Positions 34,806 to 49,306 of a DNA stretch of 64,000 nucleotides are shown here, piece by piece. Source of the stretch: Chitinophagaceae bacterium (GTDB lineage Bacteria > Bacteroidota > Bacteroidia > Chitinophagales > Chitinophagaceae). Both the position numbers and the translations under genes were made by a program. The notes beneath the pieces are model-generated. The model searched no databases. It was not told the DNA's origin and saw only the letters and a program-made list of their open reading frames with translations. The stretch spans positions 3,990 through 67,989 of the forward strand of contig JBPCSZ010000038.1 of assembly GCA_051006655.1 (NCBI GenBank), read 5' to 3'. Each line of letters opens with the position of its first letter. The stretch's first letter is position 1.

Positions 34806-34819
34806 TTAATTTTTGGAGG

Positions 34820-34906
34820 CGGTGAGAGAGGGATTCGAACCCCCGGTAAAGTTGCCCCTACTTCGCATTTCGAGTGCGACCCATTCGACCTCTCTGGCAT
34901 CTCACC
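34820..34906 (-). tRNA. tRNA-Ser (anticodon CGA)
   Basis: The reverse complement is GGTGAGATGCCAGAGAGGTCGAATGGGTCGCACTCGAAATGCGAAGTAGGGGCAACTTTACCGGGGGTTCGAATCCCTCTCTCACCG. It has a 7-bp acceptor stem, anticodon loop CT-CGA-AA, a long variable arm and a GTTCGAATC T-loop. CCA is not encoded. Confidence 0.9.
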
Positions 34907-35069: not shown

Positions 35070-36590
35070 ATGAATGAGCGCAACGTTGTAAAACAAGGCC
35101 TTAAACAAAATTGGCTTCAGTTTGTCATTTTAGTGGGTGTTAATGCCTTGGTAGGGGCCATGTTGGGAATGGAAAGAAGCATCTTACCCCGATTCGCTGA
35201 ATCCGAATTTCATATCGCATCTCACTCGGCACTACTAACTTTCATTGTTGCTTTTGGTATTTCAAAAGCATTGGCCAATTTTTTGTCGGGGCATTATTCG
35301 AATGCACTTGGACGTAAAAATTGGTTATTGTTGGGTTGGCTATTAGCCATTCCTATTCCGTGGATATTTATTTATGCGAATCATTGGAATTGGATTGTTT
35401 TAGCTAATATACTCATGGGCTTAAGTCAAGGTTTTGCGTGGAGCAGTACCGTGGTTATGAAAATTGATTTGGTGGGTGAAAAGAATCGGGGCTTAGCCAT
35501 GGGACTCAATGAGTTTGCCGGTTATTTAAGTTTAGGAATTAGTGCATACCTCACGGCGAACTTGGCGGAACATTATGCTTATCGACCTTATCCATTTTAC
35601 TTAGGCGTGTTTTTTTCTATCATTGGTTTCTTAGTCACCTTGCTCAGCGTTAACGATACCCGAAGTATGCTACAAGCAGAACAAGGTAAAAGCATGATGC
35701 CTAAAATGAAACGTGTTTTTATTGAAACCAGTTTCACCAATAAAACGTTGAGTGCTGTTACGCAGGCTGGCATGGTGAATAATTTGAACGATGGCATGTT
35801 ATGGGGATTACTGCCCATTTTATTGCATCAGCTATTTTTTAATCAAGAAGAAATTGGCATTGTATCGGCTATATATCCGGCAGTTTGGGGACTTGGACAA
35901 TTGTTTACCGGACCTTTATCCGATAAATGGTCCATAAAACGATTATTGGTTTTTGGCATGTTGGCGCAGGGGGTGATATTATTGCTATTGCCTCTTTGGC
36001 GTGGGAACATGGCGTTTATGTTGTCGGCCGGTTTATTAGGAATTGCTACGGCTATGGTTTATCCTACCTTTATGGTGGCCATTGCCAAGGGGTGTCATCC
36101 GGAACAACGGGCTGCCGGTATAGGCGTTTTTCGTTTGTGGCGCGATTTGGGTTATGCCTTCGGGGCCATTATATCCGGTATTATTGCCGATGCGTTCGGT
36201 ATCGAAATGGCTATATGGTTTGTAGGAGGTATTACGGTTTTATCGGGTATTATGGTTTATTGGCGCATGCCCAAACAAATACCGGTACCTGTACAATGCA
36301 TAAAACCCGAAATCGTTCGTTCCCTGTTGCAGCAAAAAAATAATATTCAAATTATTGATGTTCGGAATTACGAGGAATATACCCATTCGCATATTCCATT
36401 GGCAAGGCATATACCGCTCAATGAAATATCGTCGGAAATAAAACGAATTGATAAAGAAAACTTTATTGTGGTTACTTGCGGAAAGGGTGGTGGTCGCTCT
36501 GCCTTTGCCACCAAATGGTTATTGCAAGAAGGCTATAATGCCCAATGGCTTTGTGGCGGCGTTGAACAATGGCATCAATCGATGGCTTAA
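35070..36590 (+). CDS. MFS transporter with a C-terminal rhodanese domain
   Basis: About 12 TM helices followed by about 100 aa of rhodanese (IQIIDVRNYEEYTHSHIP, catalytic loop TCGKGGGRS). ATG 35070 is preferred over TTG 35061. Confidence 0.8.
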   Translation: MNERNVVKQGLKQNWLQFVILVGVNALVGAMLGMERSILPRFAESEFHIASHSALLTFIVAFGISKALANFLSGHYSNALGRKNWLLLGWLLAIPIPWIFIYANHWNWIVLANILMGLSQGFAWSSTVVMKIDLVGEKNRGLAMGLNEFAGYLSLGISAYLTANLAEHYAYRPYPFYLGVFFSIIGFLVTLLSVNDTRSMLQAEQGKSMMPKMKRVFIETSFTNKTLSAVTQAGMVNNLNDGMLWGLLPILLHQLFFNQEEIGIVSAIYPAVWGLGQLFTGPLSDKWSIKRLLVFGMLAQGVILLLLPLWRGNMAFMLSAGLLGIATAMVYPTFMVAIAKGCHPEQRAAGIGVFRLWRDLGYAFGAIISGIIADAFGIEMAIWFVGGITVLSGIMVYWRMPKQIPVPVQCIKPEIVRSLLQQKNNIQIIDVRNYEEYTHSHIPLARHIPLNEISSEIKRIDKENFIVVTCGKGGGRSAFATKWLLQEGYNAQWLCGGVEQWHQSMA

Positions 36591-37513
36591 TTAAATGCTT
36601 CGTACCATTTGAATTTCGTTTCAATAATATGTTCTTTTTCTTTTCGTAAGTAAGTTAAAAAGGCTTGACTCAAGGGCGATAAGGGTTTGTTCTTAAGCCA
36701 AATTAAATACCACGTGGAACGAATGGGGAATTCTTTCACCGGAATGATGTGCAATTGTTTGGCTATTAATTCATTTTTCAAACCAATAAGGGGCATAATA
36801 CTATAACCTAAGCCCGACATCACCGCTTGTTTCACTTGCTCATTGCTCGTAAGGGTCATCTTCATAGTAACGGGTAATTTATTCTTTCGAATAAATTGTT
36901 CCATAATTTGTCGGGTACCCGATCCCGGCTCTCGATAAATTAGCGGAATAGAATTGAAAAAATCGTAGGAGGTTTGTTGTTTATTGACAGGAAGCATTTG
37001 GCTTCCTACCAAGTATAGTTTCTGTTCTAATAATTCCATTTTTTGAATGGGAATATCCTTGGGTAGAATGGTTACAAAGGCAAAATCGATGGCGTTTTCG
37101 GCCAAGTCGGAAAACACTTGAGCCTTGTTCGAAACATCCATTTTCAATTCAATTCCCGGATGCCCTTGCATAAAATCGCTAATGAAATAGGGGGCTATAT
37201 ATTTAGCGGTTGACACTAACCCGATTTTCAATTTCCCGCTTAATAGTCCTTTATACGATTGGGTGGTTTGGTCAATCCGATGCACTTCCTCCAACATATT
37301 TTCAGCCGAACGTGCAATTGATTTTCCAAAATCGGTAATACGAATTTTTTTATTGATTATCTCAATCAAGGGAATGTCGAATTGGGCTGAAAAGTTCTTC
37401 AGTTGAATTGAAACCGCCGGTTGTGTTAAATTCAGTTCTCGGGCGGCTTTCGTAATACTGCCCAGTCGAACAACTGTGGCATAAATTCGAAGTTGGTTCA
37501 AGGTGTAGTTCAT
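36587..37513 (-). CDS. LysR family transcriptional regulator
   Basis: 308 aa with the N-terminal wHTH LNQLRIYATVVRLGSITKAARELNLTQPAVSIQLK and a C-terminal substrate-binding domain. Confidence 0.9.
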   Translation of the reverse strand: MNYTLNQLRIYATVVRLGSITKAARELNLTQPAVSIQLKNFSAQFDIPLIEIINKKIRITDFGKSIARSAENMLEEVHRIDQTTQSYKGLLSGKLKIGLVSTAKYIAPYFISDFMQGHPGIELKMDVSNKAQVFSDLAENAIDFAFVTILPKDIPIQKMELLEQKLYLVGSQMLPVNKQQTSYDFFNSIPLIYREPGSGTRQIMEQFIRKNKLPVTMKMTLTSNEQVKQAVMSGLGYSIMPLIGLKNELIAKQLHIIPVKEFPIRSTWYLIWLKNKPLSPLSQAFLTYLRKEKEHIIETKFKWYEAFN

Positions 37514-37596
37514 AAATAAACGTTATGATAAACATATCAAATATAAATGAATTTATATAATAAAATGCCATCAATTTTGTCATCAAATTCAATACC

Positions 37597-37773
37597 ATGA
37601 AAAAGGTAATATTATTCATTATGTTTTTGTTGGCCTGTATTTCACTCATCGGAATTTGGCAATTTAAACAAGATCCGGTATTGTCGAACTTATTTAAGGC
37701 AGCGGCTTTAATTTTCATGTTGTTGATTCCGGCGCAATGGGCACAAGCGGGGAAGCCTAAAACATGGCCTTGA
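37597..37773 (+). CDS. Possible small membrane protein (58 aa), divergent from the LysR gene
   Basis: It is below the track's size cut-off. ATG 37597 gives MKKVILFIMFLLACISLIGIWQFKQDPVLSNLFKAAALIFMLLIPAQWAQAGKPKTWP, with two hydrophobic segments. The only supports are the open frame and its position 83 nt from lysR. Confidence 0.25.
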   Translation: MKKVILFIMFLLACISLIGIWQFKQDPVLSNLFKAAALIFMLLIPAQWAQAGKPKTWP

Positions 37774-38017
37774 AGCGCAACAGCATAACTATATGAAACA
37801 CCCGTCCCGTCTTCCGCGGTGCATGGCACCTTGCTGCAGCCGGGGCTATTTTTCATCGTCCAATTCTTTGTTCCTCTTTTCCTATCGATTGGTGTCCTGA
37901 GACAACCCGTTTGTGAAATGAAATTTTCCTATCGGTCGATGTTCCCACAGACCGAAATACCATTTACGTTGGACATTTATAGGTAAATAAATCATACTTA
38001 TAAAAATAATGAACAAT

Positions 38018-38215
38018 TCAAGTTAAATAATTTCTTCTATCGGCTTTGGAGGTTTTGGCAAGTCCCTCTGCGATATTGAGTACAATACTAAATGAAGCTC
38101 GACCCATTTTGTCAATTACATACTTCTCTGGTTTGTGTTCTTTTAATATCGTTTTACATGCTAAGTGAAACAATCTGGATTTCTTGTATACGTCGAGGTT
38201 TTGGAAGTTGAACAT
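38018..38215 (-). pseudogene. Truncated four-helix-bundle (23S rRNA IVS / Avd-like family) gene
   Basis: MFNFQNLDVYKKSRLFHLACKTILKEHKPEKYVIDKMGRASFSIVLNIAEGLAKTSKADRRNYLT* is the first 64 of the 115 residues encoded by the intact copy at 40581-40928. The deletion junction shows microhomology AAAT(A/T)ATTTCTT. Confidence 0.75.
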
Positions 38216-38229
38216 GGGGAGAGGTTTTA

Positions 38230-38283
38230 AGAGTAGGAGTAGGAGTAGGAGTAGGAGTAAGAGAAGGAGTAGGAGTAGGAGAA
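38230..38283. repeat. Hexanucleotide microsatellite (GGAGTA)n, 9 units
   Basis: The units are AGAGTA, (GGAGTA)x4, AGAGAA, (GGAGTA)x2, GGAGAA, lying 15 nt upstream (in the gene's sense) of the truncated four-helix-bundle ATG. The paralogous locus has 6 units. Confidence 0.9.
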
Positions 38284-38571
38284 ACAAGAAGAGTAGGAAT
38301 AAGCGGTGATTTTCTTACGCTTACTCCTACTCTTTATCTTACTGTTCAGCGGAGAGAGAGGTCTATGAACCTAAACTCCTAAGTATGTGATTTTCAATGA
38401 TTTACGTCTATCTTTAGCCAAAGGAGTCACCATTAGGAAACCAAGTCAAAAAAGTTGGGGGACTTGACTCTCTGCTTAGCCAGCCTTTGGATAATTCAAA
38501 TATAATGAACCCTTCGGAGAATCCCTAAAGATTTATCCACCAAATAAGCGTTCCTTTCAAGCTGAATCCAA

Positions 38572-40134
38572 TCAATCGAAAAGAGTTGCATAGGTAGATT
38601 CGATATTCTTGACTTCTCTGTCTGTCAACATGACGAACTCCTTTTCTCTGGCTCGTTTTGACAATACGCCCTGGTTTTGTTCTAGGACCCGAACTAATGT
38701 TGATACCATCTTATCTGGCATTTCATATTCCTCTTCCATGTACTTTTTGAACGAATCATAATTAGCCAAGAACTTAATTTCCTGTGGCACGATATTCTTT
38801 ATAGTATCCTCCACACAATCAAAAAGAAATTCAGCCTGACGGGTTGCATCAAAGAAACGATAATAGTCTAAAGTCTGGTTGATTACTTTTACGTTGTGAT
38901 CTGGCGTTTCTTCCCATTCAATAAAATCCAACAATGGTTTAGAATATAATTCCAAAACTTTTTGATAATCTTGGATATGATTCAAAATGGATGACGACAC
39001 CGGAAAAATAATGCCCTGATCCGTAAACCCTTTTTTGGCCAATAGGTGATGAATCAAATAACGGTGAATTCTTCCATTCCCATCTTCAAATGGATGAATA
39101 AAAACAAATCCGAATGCGACCATAGCAGCAGCAACAATAGCATGTATGTCATCCTTGATGAGCATTTGATTAGTATAAATCAAACCGTCAATTAGATCTT
39201 CTAAATCTTCATGCCTAGCTGAAATATGGTCAGGGATTGGCTCACCCGTAGAACGATCATGTTCGCCAACGAAGCCTCCTTTTTCCCTGAAGCCCATATC
39301 AACAAATCGGCTATTTTCTATAACCAGTTGCTGCAAGCGGATTAATTCGTCCTTGGTTAAGTCGTTTAGACCTGCCTGTCCGATTGCAGTACCCCACCGA
39401 GCGGCTCTCTTACTCTTGGGGCTTTCCCCCTCTATAGTAAAGGATGCCTTTGAATCTTTTAGCAATAAGAAAGCTGAAGCTCTTTGAATAATATCTTTTC
39501 GGATACCTGCAATTTGCATCCTGTTTAATTCAATGTAATCTTTTGCTAAGTGCGTTTCGATTTTTTTCGTTTTGCGCACCAGCGCACAAAACCTCCTTGT
39601 GCCAGGCAAGTTGTTCAACACTAAATGTCTGGGTGACTTTATTCCTGTTATTCCAAATTGCAATTTTTCGTCTATTACAGGTATATAGCTCTTTTTGGAT
39701 AGGTCGTTTTTGCCATTAATTAGACTTCCCGATACCCATTCCAAAAGAAACCATATCCTTCTAGAATACTGACCCAATGGTTCGATATTCACGAGCTCCA
39801 GCAACTCTGTATTGTTTAATTTCTCTTGCAACTTTGCGAAAAGCAATAAATCAACCCCCTCATATTTGAGCGCAAAAACCAAATGGTTAAATAGTGCTTC
39901 AACCCGGGTAAGCCCCATATGGTCTTGAGGCAAATAGGCATAGGGTAAGACTATCCATTCGTCTGTTTTTACTTGATGAGTCCTTTCTGATACCATGGCT
40001 TTCAGCAATGGTAGTGGCATCTCCAATTTAAACTTCTCAATAATTGCGGCATACCCAACTAACCAACCAGTGAATGGTTTCGCTTCTCCCTGAATTATGG
40101 GCGCAATGTTTGAAAAATGGGCGCTATCATTCAT
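38572..40134 (-). CDS. Fic/DOC family protein (AMPylase-type), 520 aa
   Basis: The Fic core motif HPFEDGNGRIHRYL is at aa 347-360. An inhibitory-helix-like motif SFTIEG ([ST]xxxE[GN]) is at aa 231-236. The roughly 220-aa N-terminal and 130-aa C-terminal regions have no family I can name. Confidence 0.9.
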   Translation of the reverse strand: MNDSAHFSNIAPIIQGEAKPFTGWLVGYAAIIEKFKLEMPLPLLKAMVSERTHQVKTDEWIVLPYAYLPQDHMGLTRVEALFNHLVFALKYEGVDLLLFAKLQEKLNNTELLELVNIEPLGQYSRRIWFLLEWVSGSLINGKNDLSKKSYIPVIDEKLQFGITGIKSPRHLVLNNLPGTRRFCALVRKTKKIETHLAKDYIELNRMQIAGIRKDIIQRASAFLLLKDSKASFTIEGESPKSKRAARWGTAIGQAGLNDLTKDELIRLQQLVIENSRFVDMGFREKGGFVGEHDRSTGEPIPDHISARHEDLEDLIDGLIYTNQMLIKDDIHAIVAAAMVAFGFVFIHPFEDGNGRIHRYLIHHLLAKKGFTDQGIIFPVSSSILNHIQDYQKVLELYSKPLLDFIEWEETPDHNVKVINQTLDYYRFFDATRQAEFLFDCVEDTIKNIVPQEIKFLANYDSFKKYMEEEYEMPDKMVSTLVRVLEQNQGVLSKRAREKEFVMLTDREVKNIESTYATLFD

Positions 40135-40227
40135 GTTTTGATATATATGGGCGCAAGATAGGGAAATTTTAGGCGCAAAAAAATATAAATGGGCGCAAAA
40201 CGTAATTGGAAATTAAAATCGAGCGCA
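40097..40227. repeat. Iteron-like array: six copies of (A/T)ATGGGCGCAA straddling the Fic start codon
   Basis: ATGGGCGCA is at 40097, ATGGGCGCT at 40117, ATGGGCGCA at 40147, TAGGCGCA at 40170, ATGGGCGCA at 40189 and CGAGCGCA at about 40220. Spacings are about 20, 30, 22, 20 and 30 nt, and all copies share one orientation. Confidence 0.75.
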
Positions 40228-40274
40228 ATCTTTTATGTGTCAACGTACAAAGTCCACGAATTGAATTTTTCCTA

Positions 40275-40401
40275 TCGGTCGGTGTCCCGAAGCTGACCGA
40301 GAACAAATTTAATCTCATTGAGAATTGCGTAAATGCAATTTTGTTTCCAATACCTATCCGAGAAGGCAATCATTCTCGGTCAGCCTCTCCCCACCGACCG
40401 A
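40275..40401 (-). other. Nested inverted-repeat element (possible structured RNA or MITE-like insert) between the four-helix-bundle and Fic genes
   Basis: The outer stem is TCGGTCGGTG (40275-84) with CACCGACCGA (40392-401). The inner stem is GCTGACCGAGAA (40292-303) with TTCTCGGTCAGC (40373-84). A competing partner CCGAGAA lies at about 40358-64. An internal AATTGC-N6-GCAATT is also present. The left repeat copy keeps only TCGGTC-N12-GACCGA (37932-55). Confidence 0.6.
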
Positions 40402-40580
40402 AATACCATTTACGTTGGACATTTATAGGTAAATAAATCATACTAATAAAAATAATGAACAATTCAGGTTAAATTATTTCTTTTTTTGACAAATAGTAAA
40501 TATAGTTTTGATGTTTGAATTTTGCATTGTTGAAATGAAAGGGATGTTAACTCTACAGAGGAGCTACTCTCAAAGGGGTA

Positions 40581-40928
40581 TTACTTACTTAAATTCTGTA
40601 TCATGATGTACAACATTCTCGATATTTCATCGGCTAACCCAAGATTTGTTTGATATTGTTCATCACTTAAACGATGTTCATCGTTTAATAGGTCCAATAC
40701 AGCTACGCATTCAAAAACAGAACCACGAGCAACGGTAAAATAATTTCTTCTATCGGCATTGGAGGTTTTGGCAAGTCCCTCTGCGATATTGAGTACAATA
40801 CTAAATGAAGCTCGACCCATTTGGTCAATTACATACTTCTCCGCTTTGTGTTCTTTTAATATCGTTTTACATGCTAAGTGAAACAATCTGGATTTCTTGT
40901 ATACGTCGAGGTTTTGGAAGTTGAACAT
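40581..40928 (-). CDS. Four-helix-bundle protein (23S rRNA intervening-sequence protein / DGR Avd-like family)
   Basis: 115 aa from ATG 40928: MFNFQNLDVYKKSRLFHLACKTILK...NIAEGLAKTSNADRRNYFTVARGSVFECVAVLDLL. These are family-typical motifs. The track's poly-Leu N-terminal extension is just the translated microsatellite. Confidence 0.85.
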   Translation of the reverse strand: MFNFQNLDVYKKSRLFHLACKTILKEHKAEKYVIDQMGRASFSIVLNIAEGLAKTSNADRRNYFTVARGSVFECVAVLDLLNDEHRLSDEQYQTNLGLADEISRMLYIMIQNLSK

Positions 40929-40942
40929 GGGGAGAGGTTTTA

Positions 40943-40978
40943 GGAGTAGGAGTAGGAGTAGGAGTAGGAGTAGGAGAA
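40943..40978. repeat. Hexanucleotide microsatellite (GGAGTA)n, 6 units
   Basis: (GGAGTA)x5 plus GGAGAA, 15 nt upstream of the four-helix-bundle ATG in the gene's sense. Confidence 0.9.
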
Positions 40979-40985
40979 ACAAGAA

Positions 40986-41027
40986 GAGTAGGAATAAGCG
41001 GTGATATTCTTACGCTTACTCCTACTC
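40986..41027 (-). terminator. Hairpin downstream of tRNA-Ser(UGA), probably a terminator
   Basis: GAGTAGGAATAAGCG-N12-CGCTTACTCCTACTC pairs at 14 of 15 positions. On the transcribed strand it is followed by TTCTTGTTTC. A copy is present in the left repeat. Confidence 0.45.
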
Positions 41028-41044
41028 TTTATCTTACAGTTCAG

Positions 41045-41129
41045 CGGAGAGAGAGGGATTCGAACCCCCGGACCTGTTACAGTCAACGGTTTTCAAGACC
41101 GTCGCAATCGACCACTCTGCCATCTCTCC
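41045..41129 (-). tRNA. tRNA-Ser (anticodon UGA)
   Basis: The reverse complement is GGAGAGATGGCAGAGTGGTCGATTGCGACGGTCTTGAAAACCGTTGACTGTAACAGGTCCGGGGGTTCGAATCCCTCTCTCTCCG. It shows a cloverleaf with anticodon loop CT-TGA-AA and a long variable arm. Confidence 0.9.
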
Positions 41130-41264: not shown

Positions 41265-42281
41265 ATGAAGCCTGTTTATTACAGTGAGTACCTCCAACTC
41301 GATAAAATTTTAAATGCTCAAGACGAAGAAAGTAAAAAGAATGGCGTGCGCGCCGACGATGAAATGCTCTTCATCATCATCCATCAATCCTACGAACTCT
41401 GGTTTAAACAAATGCTCCACGAAGTGGGCATCGTTCGCGAAATTTTCGAAAAACAAACCATCGAAGATAATTCCGCCGATATGGCCAATGCCTTGCACCG
41501 CCTCGCTCGCGTTGGAAAAATTCTCGAAATGCTGGTGGGTAAACTCGGTATCCTCGAAACCATGACGCCCCTCGATTTCCTTGATTTTCGCGATTTCCTT
41601 CGCCCCGCCTCAGGCTTCCAAAGTATTCAATTTAAAATACTTGAGGCCTTGCTCGGACTCCCATTCGATAGGCGTTTTGGACAACAATACTACCTCTCGC
41701 AACTCAATTCAAGCGATGTGGAACGTGTGAAACACGCCGAACAACAAGTCTCCCTGTTTGTACTGGTCAGTCAATGGCTCGAACGCATGCCTTTCCTCAA
41801 AGCCAATGCCACTTGGGGCGAACACACTTCGTTTATGTCGGCCTACCGCGCCGCTTACGATGCGTCCTTACTGGAAAATGAAAAAGGCAATTTAAAATTA
41901 TTCGATATGCTGTTGGGCGAAGCCGGCGAGGAGGTTGCTCATCTCCGACTCAGCGCAGACGCCCGTCGCGCTGCCTTGTTCATTATGTTGTACCGCGATT
42001 ATCCCTTGCTCAATACGCCGTATCAAATTTTAAATGCCTTGCTCGATATCGACGAACTCTTGGCCCAATGGCGCTACCGCCACATGAACATGGTGCAACG
42101 CATGATTGGACGCCGCATTGGAACCGGTGGCTCAACCGGCGCCGATTACCTCAAAGCCGCCGCCGATTCGCACTATGTGTTCAAAGAATTTGCCGATTTA
42201 ACGTCATTACTCATTCCTCGCCACAAACTCCCGGCCATGCCCGCCGCCATCCTCAATTCCTTGTGTTACGGAAAAGGATAA
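41265..42281 (+). CDS. kynA: Tryptophan 2,3-dioxygenase
   Basis: 338 aa. YSEYLQLDKILNAQ, DEMLFIIIHQSYELWFKQ and the C-terminal GTGGSTGADYL are typical of bacterial TDO. Confidence 0.88.
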   Translation: MKPVYYSEYLQLDKILNAQDEESKKNGVRADDEMLFIIIHQSYELWFKQMLHEVGIVREIFEKQTIEDNSADMANALHRLARVGKILEMLVGKLGILETMTPLDFLDFRDFLRPASGFQSIQFKILEALLGLPFDRRFGQQYYLSQLNSSDVERVKHAEQQVSLFVLVSQWLERMPFLKANATWGEHTSFMSAYRAAYDASLLENEKGNLKLFDMLLGEAGEEVAHLRLSADARRAALFIMLYRDYPLLNTPYQILNALLDIDELLAQWRYRHMNMVQRMIGRRIGTGGSTGADYLKAAADSHYVFKEFADLTSLLIPRHKLPAMPAAILNSLCYGKG

Positions 42282-42346
42282 GGGCTTTTTTTTAGAAGCG
42301 CATCCATATTTCTTTATTCAACACCCGTCGTGTTTTTCGCTGCAAG

Positions 42347-42390
42347 GTTGGTATGTAGAGCCAGGGCATGCCCTGGCTCTACATACCAAC
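42347..42390. repeat. 44-bp perfect palindrome
   Basis: GTTGGTATGTAGAGCCAGGGCA|TGCCCTGGCTCTACATACCAAC has 22-nt arms with no spacer and no mismatch. It lies 66 nt downstream of kynA and is not followed by a T-run. Confidence 0.9.
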
Positions 42391-48192: not shown

Positions 48193-48396
48193 ATGTTGAT
48201 TATCGACTCTAAAGATTGCGAAAGCATCGACAAGGCGCTCAAAAAGTATAAGAAGAAATTTGAGAAGGCCCACATCCTTCCTCAACTCCGCGAGCGTCAG
48301 TCGTTCACCAAAAAGTCGGTGGTTCGTCGTACCCAGGTACTGAAGGCCATCTACAAGCAAGAGATTGCTGCCGGTGTTCGCGAAGCGAGCAAGTAA
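48193..48396 (+). CDS. rpsU: 30S ribosomal protein S21
   Basis: 67 aa, MLIIDSKDCESIDKALKKYKKKFEKAHILPQLRERQSFTKKSVVRR..., the canonical S21. The track start at 48145 lies upstream of the -7 box. Confidence 0.9.
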   Translation: MLIIDSKDCESIDKALKKYKKKFEKAHILPQLRERQSFTKKSVVRRTQVLKAIYKQEIAAGVREASK

Positions 48397-48412
48397 ACCG
48401 TATATTTGGGAT

Positions 48413-49306
48413 ATGGAAAATCCCTCAAATGCTTTTCTGCATTACCTGCAGTTTGAAAAGCGATATTCCTTATTAACTGTTCAAGCGTATCAAAACGACC
48501 TTGAACAGTTTTTTTTATACCTACAAGCTCAGTATGAACATCAAGATGCCTTTGCCGTTACGGCCTCGCAAGCGCGGTCTTGGTTGGCCGAATTGAGTGA
48601 GCAAGGACTCAAGGCCCGTTCCATGCAACGCAAATTATCGGCCCTGAAATCGTTTTATGCTTGGATGCGGAAGCAAGATTTGATGACAAATAACCCGCTC
48701 AAACAAGTGGTTTCGCCCAAACAAGCGTCTCGATTGCCGGTATGGGCCACCGAACAAGCGATGGTACCGCTCTTGGAATCGAATGTATTTCCCGATTCAT
48801 TTCGAGGACGAACCGAGCAATTGGCCATGGAATTATTGTACCAAACAGGCATGCGTCGCGCCGAATTATTGCATCTTACCCTTCCTCGTATCGACTTAGC
48901 CCAAGCGCAAATTCGGGTAATTGGGAAGGGGAATAAAGAGCGCATAATTCCAATTGCCGGGCCTTTGATTGATTTAATTCAAGGGTATTTAGGAGAGCGA
49001 GAAACCCTTTGTTCAAGTGAAGAAAACCGATTGTTGATTCTTGAGAATGGCAAACCGATTTACGAAAAATGGCTTTACCTCACCGTGAATCACTATTTGC
49101 AATATTGCCCCACCTTGAGTAAAAAGAGTCCGCACGTATTGCGCCACACCTTTGCTACCCACCTGCTGAACCAAGGGGCCGAATTGAATGCGGTTAAAGA
49201 ATTGTTGGGACATGCCAACTTGAGCGCCACCCAAATTTATACCCACAACAGCATTGAAAAATTAAAGGCGGTGTATCGGAAAGCCCACCCGCGTTCGAAT
49301 GCATAA
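48413..49306 (+). CDS. Tyrosine recombinase XerC/XerD family
   Basis: About 297 aa. It has an N-terminal SAM-like domain (FLHYLQFEKRYSLLTVQAYQNDL) and the catalytic signature ..RHTFATHLL..LGHANLSATQIYTH. The rpsU-xer pairing is a conserved housekeeping arrangement in Bacteroidota. Confidence 0.85.
   Translation: MENPSNAFLHYLQFEKRYSLLTVQAYQNDLEQFFLYLQAQYEHQDAFAVTASQARSWLAELSEQGLKARSMQRKLSALKSFYAWMRKQDLMTNNPLKQVVSPKQASRLPVWATEQAMVPLLESNVFPDSFRGRTEQLAMELLYQTGMRRAELLHLTLPRIDLAQAQIRVIGKGNKERIIPIAGPLIDLIQGYLGERETLCSSEENRLLILENGKPIYEKWLYLTVNHYLQYCPTLSKKSPHVLRHTFATHLLNQGAELNAVKELLGHANLSATQIYTHNSIEKLKAVYRKAHPRSNA

What the first reader, a model, noticed from the sequence alone, without database searches (positions are those of the whole stretch)
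37860..41129. Fic islet at tRNA-Ser(UGA), bounded by a long direct repeat that includes the last 12 nt of the tRNA
Seen directly: the 3'-terminal 12 nt of tRNA-Ser(UGA) (CGGAGAGAGAGG, 41045-41056) recur at 38350-38361. In both places they are followed by the same downstream sequence, in this order: a hairpin, a GGAGTA microsatellite, a four-helix-bundle gene and a TTTTCCTATCGGTCG motif. The shared blocks are about 97-98% identical by eye. The distal copy (37922-38361) is degraded. It lacks the 3' half of the four-helix-bundle gene (junction microhomology AAAT(A/T)ATTTCTT) and has lost about 100 bp of a nested inverted repeat. The 1.9 kb between the repeats (38362-40265) holds only the Fic gene and an iteron-like array. 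The repeat period is 2695 bp.

Inference: this looks like tandem accretion or site-specific insertion at a tRNA 3' end. It is atypical because the 'att' homology is hundreds of bp long and there is no integrase, excisionase or transposase in or next to it. That leaves three options: a trans-mobilised element, a decayed island, or a duplication by homologous recombination.
Basis: partly seen in the sequence, partly recalled or inferred. Interest (0 to 1): 0.7.

Follow-up and report, generated by a model that had tools for sequence, protein, structure and literature searches.

The report
Integrase-less Fic defence islet at tRNA-Ser
A 2.7-kb insert carrying one candidate anti-phage Fic gene sits at the end of a serine tRNA gene, bounded by an old integration scar and a duplicated copy of the tRNA's downstream flank: a decayed, integrase-less variant of a familiar kind of genomic island.

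Summary
The last 12 nt of tRNA-Ser(UGA) (41045-41056) recur at 38350-38361. The roughly 700 nt downstream recur too, at 97.5% identity (390/400) in the alignable blocks.

The unit between the repeats is a self-contained cassette:
- a 520-aa Fic protein that matches PADLOC candidate defence family PDC-S24 (E 4e-180);
- six conserved TTGCGCCCAT boxes;
- a conserved ~130-nt 3' element (psi) that ends in the tRNA 12-mer.

The same cassette occurs in about 15 unrelated contexts. Seven of them carry a tRNA-Ser gene (UGA, CGA or GGA) or its 3'-end remnant.

The psi-end plus 12-mer (AGGTTCAYARACC-TCTCTCTCCGC) also occurs in Prevotella. There it overlaps the 3' end of a tyrosine integrase gene and forms an attR-type junction of an integrated element. 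So the distal 12-mer is an att scar, not chance.

The closest species (L007) has the site without Fic and with a single flank copy. No island integrase lies in the window.

Best reading: a defective derivative of a tRNA-Ser-specific integrative element captured the tRNA's flank and lost its integrase, much as lambda-dgal does. Re-insertion then duplicated the flank.

This is a new variant of a known kind, of moderate interest. The psi element is the unexplained part.

The parts
41044..41129 (-). tRNA-Ser(UGA), intact. Its last 12 nt (41045-41056, sense CCTCTCTCTCCG, called 'O' here) form the proximal, attL-like copy of the repeat core.
   Evidence: ARAGORN. Rfam tRNA, 59.3 bits. The 22-nt 3' end is identical in relatives L007-L011 and L014-L015.
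40258..41043 (-). Proximal flank copy (P). It holds a long hairpin just after the tRNA (arms 40952-40982 / 41007-41037), (TAGGAG)6 at 40941-40976, the intact four-helix-bundle gene, the nested inverted repeat (40275-40303 / 40373-40401) and a TTTTCCTATCGG motif (40267-40278).
40581..40928 (-). Intact four-helix-bundle gene, 115 aa from the ATG at 40928 (the longest ORF runs to 40982). Family: PF05635 23S_rRNA_IVP / TIGR02436.
   Evidence: Pfam E 6.6e-23. TIGR02436 E 4.4e-20. GC is 35.9%, against an ORF mean of 44.4 +/- 2.4%. Orthologues lie at the same tRNA in L007 (remnant) and L010.
40237..40257 (-). Left joint: about 21 nt of unassigned origin between the end of flank copy P and the first box of the Fic cassette. 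No O-like sequence is present here.
   Evidence: Homology to distal copy D stops at 40258 (family D9). Homology to other Fic cassettes starts at about 40232-40236.
40099..40228 (-). Six TTGCGCCCAT-type boxes (+ strand starts 40099, 40119, 40149, 40171, 40191, 40221). Four lie upstream of the ATG and two inside the first 45 nt of the CDS. Probably an operator/promoter array.
   Evidence: the boxes keep the same positions in all 14 other cassettes compared, although the promoter region is only about 70% identical to L092.
38572..40134 (-). Fic-domain protein, 520 aa. It has the canonical HPFEDGNGRIHR motif at residue 347 and an N-terminal inhibitory-helix motif, SFTIEG, at residue 231 (class II layout). 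It belongs to PADLOC candidate defence family PDC-S24.
   Evidence: Pfam Fic E 3.4e-14. PADLOC PDC-S24 E 4e-180 over residues 25-519, and SoFic E 1.3e-21 over 253-500. Distant PDB relatives are SoFic and 3EQX. Motifs found. GC 39.5%.
38362..38493 (-). psi: a conserved ~130-nt element 3' of Fic. It has a 5' compound hairpin (CCAAAGG...CCTTTGG enclosing CAAGTC...GACTTG), an A/U-rich linker and a 3' T-arm-like hairpin (AGGTT-CATA-GACCT) that runs into the tRNA 12-mer.
   Evidence: It is 87% identical to psi in L092, while the CDS is only 73% identical. It is present in L087, L092 and L095, and partly in L088. Shared fold. No Rfam family matches.
38350..38361 (-). Distal copy of the tRNA 3' 12-mer (O): an attR-type joint between psi and the second flank copy.
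   Evidence: Exact 12-mer. In L087, L092 and L095 the same psi-O is followed by three other, unrelated flanks. The psi-end plus O matches integrase-associated att sequences in L130 and L181.
37877..38349 (-). Distal flank copy (D), decayed. It holds the hairpin (arms 38256-38287 / 38312-38343), a microsatellite of 8.5 units (38231-38281), a truncated four-helix-bundle gene (38018-38215, 65 aa) and TTTTCCTATCG motifs at 37924 and 37877. It lacks about 270 nt of the gene and about 100 nt of the nested inverted repeat.
   Evidence: (PF05635 E 4.4e-09, profile positions 1-62 only).
36587..37773 (.). Conserved left flank: LysR-family regulator (36587-37513, minus strand) and a 58-aa ORF (37597-37773, plus strand). 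L007 has the same order.
   Evidence: Pfam. Synteny with L007.
41265..42281 (+). Conserved right flank: tryptophan 2,3-dioxygenase (TDO). It neighbours tRNA-Ser(UGA) in related Chitinophagaceae.
   Evidence: Pfam E 5.1e-79..

Best explanation
The islet is a decayed, integrase-less remnant of a tRNA-Ser-specific integrative element of Bacteroidota. Its surviving cargo is one autoregulated Fic-domain gene of candidate anti-phage family PDC-S24.

**Steps, each marked shown or inferred.**
1. *Shown.* The Fic cassette (boxes + gene + psi) is a portable unit found in many genomic contexts, and those contexts are enriched for tRNA-Ser loci.
2. *Shown by sequence comparison; function inferred.* The cassette's 3' end, psi-O, is an attR-type junction. 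A T-arm-like arm (AGGTTCAYARACC) is fused to the tRNA-Ser terminal block (TCTCTCTCCGC). The same 24-mer overlaps the 3' end of a Bacteroidota tyrosine integrase gene and forms an element/flank junction in Prevotella.
3. *Inferred.* An ancestral element that encoded an integrase inserted at the 12-nt core of tRNA-Ser, as NBU2-type elements do. That produced tRNA-O-[int...Fic-psi]-O-flank.
4. *Inferred.* An aberrant, illegitimate excision followed, as in the formation of lambda-dgal. The circle took the host flank next to attR (terminator hairpin + four-helix-bundle gene) and left the integrase end behind. The result was a 2,695-bp circle: O-flank-joint-Fic-psi.
5. *Inferred.* That circle re-inserted next to an unoccupied tRNA-Ser(UGA) in the same species. 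It used either O x O recombination by an integrase supplied in trans, or Campbell-type homologous recombination through the flank. Either route gives exactly the observed order: tRNA-O-flank(P)-joint-Fic-psi-O-flank(D).
6. *Shown.* The now redundant distal flank then decayed: two deletions, microsatellite drift and 2.5% substitutions.

Today the unit has both att-like cores but no recombinase. At most it could be mobilised in trans or in cis, like a CIME.
For: **Same locus in relatives.**
- The nearest species, L007 (TDO 81% aa), has LysR / small ORF / one decayed flank copy / tRNA-Ser / TDO. There is no Fic, and only 383 nt lie between the small ORF and the tRNA, against 3,270 nt here.

**Cassette mobility.**
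- Homology to the window runs from about 40232-40236 to 38334-38349 in L087, L092 and L095. Completely different flanks follow.

**O is a recombination joint.**
- psi-O is followed by four unrelated sequences, each beginning with a hairpin (window, L087, L092, L095).

**Link to tRNA-Ser.**
- A tRNA-Ser gene lies on the same strand within 3 kb upstream of Fic in the window (UGA), L109 (CGA) and L128 (GGA).
- Contig L092 starts with the tRNA 12-mer plus the flank of L109's tRNA-Ser(CGA).
- L087 and L095 carry psi-O. L088 carries tRNA-like ends.

**Accretion at one orthologous locus.**
- L095 reads Fic-psi-O / terminator / nitroreductase-KatG.
- L092 reads O-X1-Fic-psi1-O-X2-ORF392-psi2-decayed O / the same nitroreductase-KatG (81% nt).

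**The same architecture arose independently.**
- In L092, Fic is bracketed by a 157-nt direct repeat (90% identity) that begins with the tRNA 12-mer but consists of a different local flank.

**att evidence.**
- In L130, the reverse complement of CCTCCGAAGGTTCACAAACCTCTCTCTCCGC lies inside the 3' end of a 431-aa integrase (Arm-DNA-bind_5 + SAM_5 + Phage_integrase).
- The P. nigrescens homologue keeps GGTTCACAAACCTCTCTCTCC at the same place.
- Elsewhere in that record...ACCTCCGAAGGTTCACAAGCCTCTCTCTCCGC ends an arsenic-resistance element, and homology stops exactly at the end of O.
- Two of five pattern hits in viral contigs extend through the 5 unsearched nt TCCGC, which chance would give about 1 time in 1,000 per hit.

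**Other support.**
- psi is more conserved than the gene: 87% against 73%.
- The islet is compositionally foreign: GC 38.2% against 43.8% for the window, and the four-helix-bundle gene lies below every one of 29 ORFs.
- CIMEs and accretion are defined in PMC5704250. A tRNA-Ser-linked MTn with attR next to tRNA-Ser is described in PMC13597742.
Against: - No Bacteroidota-type integrase occurs in the window, or in any of the Chitinophagaceae loci fetched, about 1.6 Mb in all.
- The integrase-linked examples come from Prevotella, a distant order.
- No excision or empty-site polymorphism was seen. Three other samples carry the same two-copy arrangement with essentially the same SNPs.
- The left joint (40237-40257) has no recognisable att or O remnant, so step 4 rests only on architecture.
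- Direct repeats of local sequence (49-400 nt, 81-91% identity) also bracket the Fic cassette in contexts with no tRNA-derived repeat (L089/L105, L090, L093, L128). This points to a general homology- or duplication-driven insertion route that needs no integrase.
- L010 has three tandem flank units at this same tRNA with no cargo and only a 5-nt tRNA overlap. Flank capture by a Fic element does not explain that.
Confidence: 0.5

Rival explanations
1. In-situ duplication with no site-specific recombinase. A Fic-psi-O fragment arrived by transformation, or from a plasmid or ICE. It was joined by template switching during replication, or by homology-facilitated illegitimate recombination. The only homology between the incoming DNA and the chromosome is psi-O against the tRNA 3' end (18 of 22 nt, 12 of them contiguous). 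The return switch therefore always lands on O, while the other joint falls anywhere downstream. This duplicates the local flank in one event.
For: - Direct repeats of purely local sequence and variable length bracket the cassette in at least seven context types, some with no tRNA-derived repeat.
- No integrase lies near any Chitinophagaceae copy.
- The left joint has no att-like sequence.
- L010 shows that cargo-free tandem duplication of the same flank happens at this tRNA.
- L004 carries the D-type base at a P-copy position (40445). That hints at exchange between the two copies.
Against: - Twelve contiguous nt is far below the length usually needed for RecA-dependent exchange (established knowledge).
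- This model does not explain why psi is conserved above the level of the coding sequence.
- It does not explain why the same altered T-loop arm plus O sits beside integrases and at element ends in Prevotella.
- It does not explain why units stack at tRNA-Ser with psi-O at each distal end (L092/L095).
Confidence: 0.27
2. An old segmental duplication of tRNA-Ser plus its flank. On this view psi is the decayed second tRNA copy, the flank copies have been kept similar by gene conversion, and the Fic gene inserted between them independently.
For: - psi retains tRNA-like traces: a T-arm-like hairpin, an acceptor 3' strand, and a TTGAAAA / TTCGAAA stretch at roughly anticodon-loop distance.
- psi is always followed by a hairpin, as a tRNA gene would be.
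- A stand-alone psi-like copy with a strong terminator exists in L017.
Against: - psi here is 87% identical to the psi next to Fic at a different tRNA-Ser locus (CGA) in another lineage, where the flank is unrelated. So psi came with the cassette and not from this tRNA.
- The tRNA covariance model does not score psi at all, even at E <= 10.
- Identity drops from 97.5% to about 50% exactly at the 12-mer boundary. That is a breakpoint, not a decay gradient.
- L007 has no second copy.
Confidence: 0.08
3. A small replicon integrated by homologous recombination. On this view the box array is a set of iterons, the Fic-domain protein is the initiator, and the 2.7-kb unit is an integrated mini-plasmid.
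For: - Six regularly spaced repeats lie next to the only gene.
- The unit has the size of a small circle.
- Homologues occur on plasmids.
Against: - The protein is a canonical Fic AMP-transferase with an inhibitory helix and a SoFic-like C-terminal region. It has no Rep domain.
- The boxes straddle the start codon and accompany the gene in every chromosomal context, as operators do.
- Plasmid homologues are only 47-52% identical. They sit on large plasmids of 140-830 kb and are annotated only as Fic family proteins.
- There were no hits in viral contigs.
Confidence: 0.03

Closest known systems
NBU2-type mobilizable transposons and related Bacteroidales MTn/CTn that integrate at the 3' end of tRNA-Ser (Wang et al. 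2000, J Bacteriol 182:3559, cited in PMC7315117; MTnBf8, PMC13597742)
   Same: - The target is the 3' end of a tRNA-Ser gene in Bacteroidota.
- The att core is short (12-13 bp; the NBU2 figure is from my own knowledge).
- A direct repeat of that core bounds the insert.
- The psi-end plus O 24-mer recurs beside Arm-DNA-bind_5/SAM_5 tyrosine integrases and at an element/flank junction in Prevotella.
   Different: - This unit has no integrase, mob gene or oriT, and is only 2.7 kb.
- The repeat extends about 700 nt beyond the core into duplicated host flank.
- The host is a freshwater-type Chitinophagaceae, not Bacteroidales.
CIMEs (cis-mobilizable elements) and tandem accretion at tRNA genes (Pavlovic 2004; Bellanger 2011; reviewed in PMC5704250). 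Also the ssrA-linked tandem islands of Dehalococcoides (PMC3146451; abstract seen only in the listing, paper not read).
   Same: [quoted passage not shown]
- It lies at the 3' end of a tRNA gene.
- Related loci show stacked units, each with a distal att copy (L092/L095).
   Different: - attL and attR here share hundreds of bp of flank as well as the core.
- Mobilisation in cis or in trans has not been shown.
- The left internal joint is illegitimate rather than an att site.
Specialised-transducing derivatives such as lambda-dgal/dbio: aberrant excision that captures host flank and loses element genes (textbook knowledge)
   Same: - Host DNA from one side of the att site has been gained.
- Element genes from the other side, including int, have been lost.
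- Re-insertion into a wild-type site duplicates the captured host segment as a long direct repeat.
   Different: - No phage is involved, and there is no packaging constraint.
- The analogy concerns the rearrangement logic only, and it is inferred from architecture.
PADLOC PDC-S24 and SoFic single-gene Fic defence candidates
   Same: - Full-length HMM match to PDC-S24 (E 4e-180) and partial match to SoFic.
- Canonical Fic motif and a class II inhibitory motif.
- Neighbours elsewhere include SNF2 helicase, HipA, CHAT-nSTAND and HTH_3+Fic genes.
   Different: - No defence phenotype is known for this family. A literature search for 'PDC-S24' found nothing.
- The protein has an extra ~230-aa N-terminal region with no family assignment.
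Integron gene-cassette arrays
   Same: - Single-gene units stack at a fixed chromosomal anchor.
- Each unit ends in a conserved, hairpin-forming ~130-nt element (psi), and newer units appear to lie next to the anchor (L092).
   Different: - There is no IntI, attI or attC.
- Cassettes carry their own promoter.
- The anchor is a tRNA gene.
- Only two cargo types with psi ends have been seen so far.

Membership tests
tRNA-gene-targeting integrative element / genomic island | Inserted at the 3' end of a tRNA gene that remains intact | tested here: met
   The tRNA-Ser(UGA) at 41044-41129 is intact, and the insert starts immediately 3' of it.
tRNA-gene-targeting integrative element / genomic island | Bounded by a direct repeat of the tRNA 3' terminal segment (attL/attR core) | tested here: met
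   The exact 12-mer lies at 41045-41056 and 38350-38361. The distal copy is joined to a non-tRNA arm (psi).
tRNA-gene-targeting integrative element / genomic island | Encodes its own site-specific recombinase | tested here: not met
   The unit has no recombinase ORF. The only tyrosine recombinase in the window is XerC/D-like, at 48365-49306.
tRNA-gene-targeting integrative element / genomic island | Absent from the same site in related genomes | tested here: met
   L007 has the same synteny but no Fic and no second flank copy. L008, L009, L011 and L014-L016 also have tRNA-Ser beside TDO with no Fic hit.
CIME (cis-mobilizable element) | Retains attL and attR but lacks integration and transfer genes | tested here: met
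   Both O copies are present. No int, mob or oriT candidates were found.
CIME (cis-mobilizable element) | Excises or transfers when a related integrase or ICE is supplied | not testable with these tools
   This needs read-level data or an experiment. The unitigs show only the integrated two-copy form.
NBU2-like mobilizable transposon | IntN2-type integrase plus mob/oriT, with a 13-bp core shared with the tRNA-Ser 3' end | tested here: not met
   A core of similar size and position is present, but integrase and mobilisation genes are absent.
Fic/DOC family, PADLOC PDC-S24 | Fic domain with an HxFx(D/E)GNGRxxR motif and a full-length match to the family profile | tested here: met
   PF02661 E 3.4e-14. 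PDC-S24 E 4e-180 over 25-519. HPFEDGNGRIHR at residue 347.
Fic/DOC family, PADLOC PDC-S24 | Confers protection against phage | not testable with these tools
   This is a candidate family only, and no paper was found.
Four-helix-bundle / 23S rRNA IVS protein family (PF05635, TIGR02436) | Profile match above the curated cut-off over the whole domain | tested here: met
   Proximal copy: 81.4 bits (cut-off 33.8) and TIGR02436 71.9 bits (cut-off 24). Distal copy: profile positions 1-62 only.
Integron | IntI integrase, attI site and promoterless cassettes ending in attC | tested here: not met
   No IntI is present; the Xer-like protein scores far below the integron-integrase cut-offs. The cassette has its own box/promoter array.
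Iteron-regulated replicon | Rep initiator gene next to iterons, with an extrachromosomal form | tested here: not met
   The only protein is a Fic enzyme. The boxes overlap the start codon and follow the gene in all chromosomal contexts.
Known structured RNA (Rfam) for psi | Covariance-model match at or near the gathering score | tested here: not met
   Nothing at psi in the window at E <= 10. In L017 only terminator-driven sub-threshold matches appear.

The most novel reading that the evidence does not exclude
psi may not be a dead scar. It could be a functional, portable ~130-nt module: either a folded recombination site or a small tRNA-like RNA. Its job would be to let single-gene defence cassettes be captured and stacked at the 3' ends of tRNA-Ser genes (UGA, CGA, GGA) by a recombinase supplied in trans.

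That would amount to a tRNA-anchored, integron-like cassette system in Chitinophagaceae and other Bacteroidota. Every insertion would also bring its own copy of the tRNA's terminator flank.

The evidence does not exclude this:
- psi is conserved above the coding sequence.
- psi keeps a common fold, with one compensatory pair (T-A / T-G / C-G).
- psi ends units with different cargo (Fic, and ORF392 in L092).
- psi occurs alone with a strong terminator in L017.
Probability: 0.15. Interest if true: 0.7.

Novelty: new variant of a known kind. Interest (0 to 1): 0.42.

Why it matters
tRNA genes are the classic landing pads for genomic islands. How tiny single-gene defence islets without any recombinase arrive there and persist is seldom worked out.

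This locus gives a concrete anatomy: an att scar fused to a defence cassette, a captured and duplicated host flank, and decay of the redundant copy. It also comes with independent replicas at other tRNA-Ser genes. It suggests that aberrant excision and re-insertion, or homology-driven circle insertion, can turn large integrative elements into minimal defence 'cassettes' that keep moving within populations.

The work also flags two things that can be tested directly: an uncharacterised Fic family (PDC-S24) with a conserved operator array, and a conserved ~130-nt tRNA-like element.

Tried and rejected
- **Exact-protein look-ups.** I queried both four-helix-bundle ORFs, with three start choices, to find contigs bridging an empty or alternative allele. 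Nothing was on record.
- **Other strains of the same species.** Look-ups of TDO, Fic and LysR returned only short unitigs that break at the repeats. They confirm the arrangement but cannot show polymorphism.
- **Viral contigs.**
  - The Fic protein has no relatives there.
  - GTCAAGTCCCCCARCTTT gave one chance hit inside a phage gene.
  - TGGTGACYCCTTTGGC gave 46 hits, none of which extended under the psi HMM.
- **psi as a tRNA or known RNA.** There was no Rfam hit, and ARAGORN calls nothing. Single-sequence folding is no better than shuffles (z from +0.7 to -1.1). With 4-5 sequences, RNAalifold finds only 3 pairs with changes on both sides. The question stays open.
- **psi as a small ORF.** Reading frames are not conserved between loci (read by eye), so I rejected this.
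- **A general link between four-helix-bundle genes and tRNAs.** In 1.63 Mb of fetched loci, homologues of this gene occur only at this tRNA-Ser(UGA) locus. No general link could be tested.
- **Simple terminator scan.** It does not call the post-tRNA hairpins. 'Terminator-like' therefore rests on position and on direct reading.
- **Literature.** 'PDC-S24' gave no papers, and the NBU2 primary paper is not held.
- **Covariance model of psi.** I did not build one. There were too few members, and no further collection scans remained.

Full report
**1. Observation.**
The window carries tRNA-Ser(UGA) on the minus strand at 41044-41129 (ARAGORN; Rfam tRNA 59.3 bits). Its terminal 12 nt (sense CCTCTCTCTCCG, called O below) recur exactly 2,695 bp away at 38350-38361.

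A local alignment extends the match well beyond the tRNA:
- 38265-38361 ~ 40960-41056: 95/97
- 38240-38258 ~ 40941-40959: 19/19
- 38025-38227 ~ 40738-40940: 199/203
- 37940-38020 ~ 40386-40466: 77/81

Together this is 390/400 = 97.5%.

- a hexamer microsatellite;
- a truncated four-helix-bundle gene;
- a missing stretch of about 100 nt of a nested inverted repeat;
- three TTTTCCTATCG motifs.

Unitigs from three other sequencing runs match the window (two exactly, one with a single mismatch). They stop where the two copies become indistinguishable over 31 nt. The arrangement is therefore real and shared.

**2. Anatomy, read in the direction of the tRNA.**
The order is:
1. the tRNA, ending in O;
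2. flank copy P: a long hairpin, (CTCCTA)6, an intact 115-aa four-helix-bundle gene (PF05635/TIGR02436), a nested inverted repeat and the motif;
3. a 21-nt joint of unknown origin (40237-40257);
4. six TTGCGCCCAT boxes that straddle the start codon;
5. a 520-aa Fic gene;
6. a conserved ~130-nt element, called psi here (38362-38493);
7. the second O;
8. flank copy D, which is decayed;
9. a 58-aa ORF and a LysR gene.

The Fic protein has a canonical HPFEDGNGRIHR active-site motif and an upstream SFTIEG inhibitory-helix motif. It matches the PADLOC candidate defence family PDC-S24 over its full length (E 4e-180) and SoFic in part.

The islet is AT-rich for this genome:
- islet 38.2%, against 43.8% for the window;
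- Fic 39.5%;
- four-helix-bundle gene 35.9%;
- ORF mean 44.4 +/- 2.4%.

**3. The same locus in relatives.**
The organism is an uncultured-type Chitinophagaceae. tRNA-Ser(UGA) next to tryptophan 2,3-dioxygenase (TDO) is conserved in its relatives.
- **L007** is the closest species (TDO 81% aa). It has LysR, the small ORF, one decayed four-helix-bundle remnant, the hairpin, the tRNA and TDO. It has no Fic and no second copy.
- **L011 and L016** have only a terminator hairpin after the tRNA.
- **L010** has three tandem copies of hairpin + four-helix-bundle gene at 99-100% identity. One is full length and two are truncated. Each is joined to the next through the last 5 nt of the tRNA (CGGAG | TTCAAGTT). 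It carries no cargo.

This tRNA end is therefore a recurrent rearrangement point in the clade.

**4. The cassette elsewhere.**
Relatives of the Fic gene are very numerous, and most lie on 2-3-kb contigs. I recovered about 15 distinct contexts.

*Boundaries of homology to the window.*
- It always begins at the first box (~40232-40236).
- It ends at one of three points: just past the stop codon, about 60 nt later, or at psi-O (in L087, L092 and L095).
- After psi-O the four loci continue with four unrelated sequences, each starting with a hairpin. O is therefore a recombination joint.

*psi is conserved.*
- psi is 87% identical between the window and L092.
- Over the same pair, the coding sequence is 73% identical and the promoter about 70%.

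*Link to tRNA-Ser.*
- tRNA-Ser genes lie on the same strand within 3 kb upstream of Fic in the window (UGA), L109 (CGA) and L128 (GGA).
- Contig L092 begins with O followed by the very flank that follows L109's tRNA-Ser(CGA).
- In L092 the Fic cassette is again bracketed by a direct repeat that starts with O, but this repeat is made of that other flank (157 nt, 90%).
- L095 and L092 are orthologous loci, with 81% identity over nitroreductase-KatG. L095 reads Fic-psi-O | native flank. L092 reads O-X1-Fic-psi1-O-X2-ORF392-psi2-decayed O | the same native flank. That is tandem accretion, with a psi-O at the distal end of each unit.

**5. Evidence that psi-O is an att-type sequence.**
I scanned viral contigs for the psi-end (AGGTTCAYARACCTCTYTC). 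This gave five hits, about the number expected by chance. Two of them, however, continue through the five unsearched bases TCCGC.
- **L130.** The reverse complement of CCTCCGAAGGTTCACAAACCTCTCTCTCCGC lies inside the 3' end of a 431-aa tyrosine integrase with the Bacteroidota Arm-DNA-bind_5 / SAM_5 / Phage_integrase architecture.
- **Prevotella nigrescens.** The 84%-identical homologue keeps GGTTCACAAACCTCTCTCTCC at the same position.
- **Elsewhere in that replicon.** ...ACCTCCGAAGGTTCACAAGCCTCTCTCTCCGC terminates an arsenic-resistance segment. Homology stops exactly at the end of O, a hairpin follows, and then the integrase of another element. This is an attR-type junction of the same design as psi-O | hairpin in the Chitinophagaceae loci.
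- **L129.** The same 26-mer lies in a defence islet (AbiE-like pair, AAA ATPase), preceded by CGTTACA direct repeats.

Integration of Bacteroides mobilizable transposons at the 3' end of tRNA-Ser through a short core is established for NBU2 (Wang et al. 2000, cited in PMC7315117; the 13-bp figure is from my own knowledge). MTnBf8 has its attR beside a tRNA-Ser (PMC13597742).

**6. Mechanism.**
*What is shown.*
- The cassette is portable.
- O is a joint.
- psi-O resembles integrase-linked att sequences.
- Units stack at tRNA-Ser.
- The extra homology here is duplicated local flank.
- The distal copy has decayed.

*What is inferred.*
- An integrase-bearing element once inserted at O.
- An aberrant excision then captured the flank next to attR and left the integrase end behind, as in lambda-dgal. 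This produced a 2,695-bp circle.
- Insertion of that circle beside an unoccupied tRNA-Ser of the same species produced tRNA-O-P-joint-Fic-psi-O-D. The insertion could have used O with an integrase in trans, or the flank by Campbell-type homologous recombination.

*What this accounts for.*
- The missing integrase.
- The illegitimate left joint.
- The clean right joint.
- The species-specific nature of the duplicated flank in both the window and L092.

In present-day terms the unit matches the definition of a CIME (PMC5704250), with the unusual addition of captured flank.

**7. Rivals.**
- **Recombinase-free route (0.27).** The main rival is template switching, or homology-facilitated illegitimate recombination, anchored on the psi-O / tRNA match.
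  - In its favour: direct repeats of local sequence (49-400 nt, 81-91%) bracket the cassette in contexts without tRNA-derived repeats (L089/L105, L090, L093, L128). L010 has a cargo-free tandem array. No integrase occurs in any Chitinophagaceae locus.
  - Against it: it does not explain the conservation of psi, the integrase association or the accretion pattern.
- **Old duplication with psi as a decayed tRNA (0.08).** This is contradicted by psi being shared with a cassette at a different tRNA-Ser with an unrelated flank, and by the abrupt identity break at O.
- **Integrated mini-replicon (0.03).** This is contradicted by the nature of the protein and by the behaviour of the boxes.

**8. Unresolved.**
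- psi has a shared predicted fold: a compound 5' hairpin, a linker and a 3' T-arm-like hairpin running into O. One pair varies T-A / T-G / C-G across loci.
- A stand-alone psi-like copy in L017 has a TAnnTTTG-like box upstream and a strong terminator downstream.
- With five sequences this cannot separate an RNA from a folded or protein-bound DNA site. Folding energies are not better than shuffles.
- Six LysR-side unitigs from six samples all end at window position 37826. That is 50 nt outside the repeat and next to a small hairpin. It may mark the edge of a population-variable segment, but I could not see the alternative branch.

**9. Verdict.**
The locus is a new variant of a known kind: a tRNA-linked island decayed to a cis/trans-mobilisable remnant with captured flank, carrying a candidate Fic defence gene. 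Interest is moderate, at 0.42. The more novel reading, in which psi is the recombination module of a tRNA-anchored cassette system, is not excluded, and I put it at about 0.15.

Noticed in passing
L010 8836-9804 (MAG Ejby_18-Q3-R6-50_BATAC.314): Three tandem units of hairpin + four-helix-bundle gene lie directly after tRNA-Ser(UGA), at 99-100% identity. Each is joined through the last 5 nt of the tRNA (CGGAG|TTCAAGTTATTTTAGA). There is no cargo gene. The middle unit has an internal deletion at a TCTAAA microhomology.
   Followed up: partly
L010 8673-8842: The oldest four-helix-bundle remnant seems to be split by an insertion of about 165 nt flanked by an AGAAT duplication, which looks like a MITE. 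This was read by eye only.
   Followed up: no
window 37826 (ends of L113-L118): Six unitigs from six different samples that carry the LysR gene all stop at exactly this base. It lies 50 nt outside the repeat and just before a small hairpin (37829-37845). This may be a branch point for an alternative allele in the population.
   Followed up: partly
window 42347-42390 and 42295-42340 vs 37772-37817: A perfect 44-nt palindrome lies just after the TDO gene, and unitigs L001-L003 all end inside it (at 42376). The 46 nt before it resemble (72%) the stretch after the 58-aa ORF on the other side of the islet. This may be a small repeat family of a box plus a palindrome.
   Followed up: no
L017 240-357: A stand-alone psi-like element (nhmmer E 1.8e-05) has a TATATTTG box about 20 nt upstream and a strong intrinsic terminator right after ...CCTCTCTCTCCGC. 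It sits next to amidinotransferase-like and NOS-like genes, with no Fic nearby.
   Followed up: partly
L129 9956-13738: A defence-type islet (AbiEi/AbiEii-like pair, AAA ATPase, IS630- and IS1-type transposases; gene identities read from ORF translations, not profile-tested) contains CAAGGTTCACAGACCTCTCTCTCCGC. Two CGTTACA direct repeats lie just upstream, like arm-type sites.
   Followed up: partly
L109 3439-3516 and 12816-12894: A 9.4-kb island downstream of tRNA-Ser(CGA) holds SnoaL, AraC, Fic, a 601-aa protein and an SNF2 helicase. It is bracketed by an ~80-nt direct repeat (83-96%) that starts about 250 nt after the tRNA rather than in it.
   Followed up: no
L088 1-304 and 2320-2360: Two identical 177-nt tandem units each end in GGGAAGTCCGAGCGTAGCGAGGACAATCCCTCCCTCTCCGCAG. 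This is a second type of tRNA-Ser-like 3' end with a broken T-loop. A third copy of the 41-nt core lies after the Fic gene.
   Followed up: no
window 34818-34906: A second tRNA-Ser (CGA) lies 6.2 kb away. Its terminal 12-mer differs from O at one base (CCTCTCTCACCG), and nothing is inserted after it.
   Followed up: partly
L004 position equivalent to window 40445: One sample has the D-copy base (T) at this P-copy position. This suggests gene conversion between the two flank copies, or a mixed assembly path.
   Followed up: no
window 48365-49306: A XerC/XerD-like tyrosine recombinase (TIGR02224, 298 bits, just under the equivalog cut-off) sits among housekeeping genes. It is the only recombinase in the window.
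   Followed up: yes
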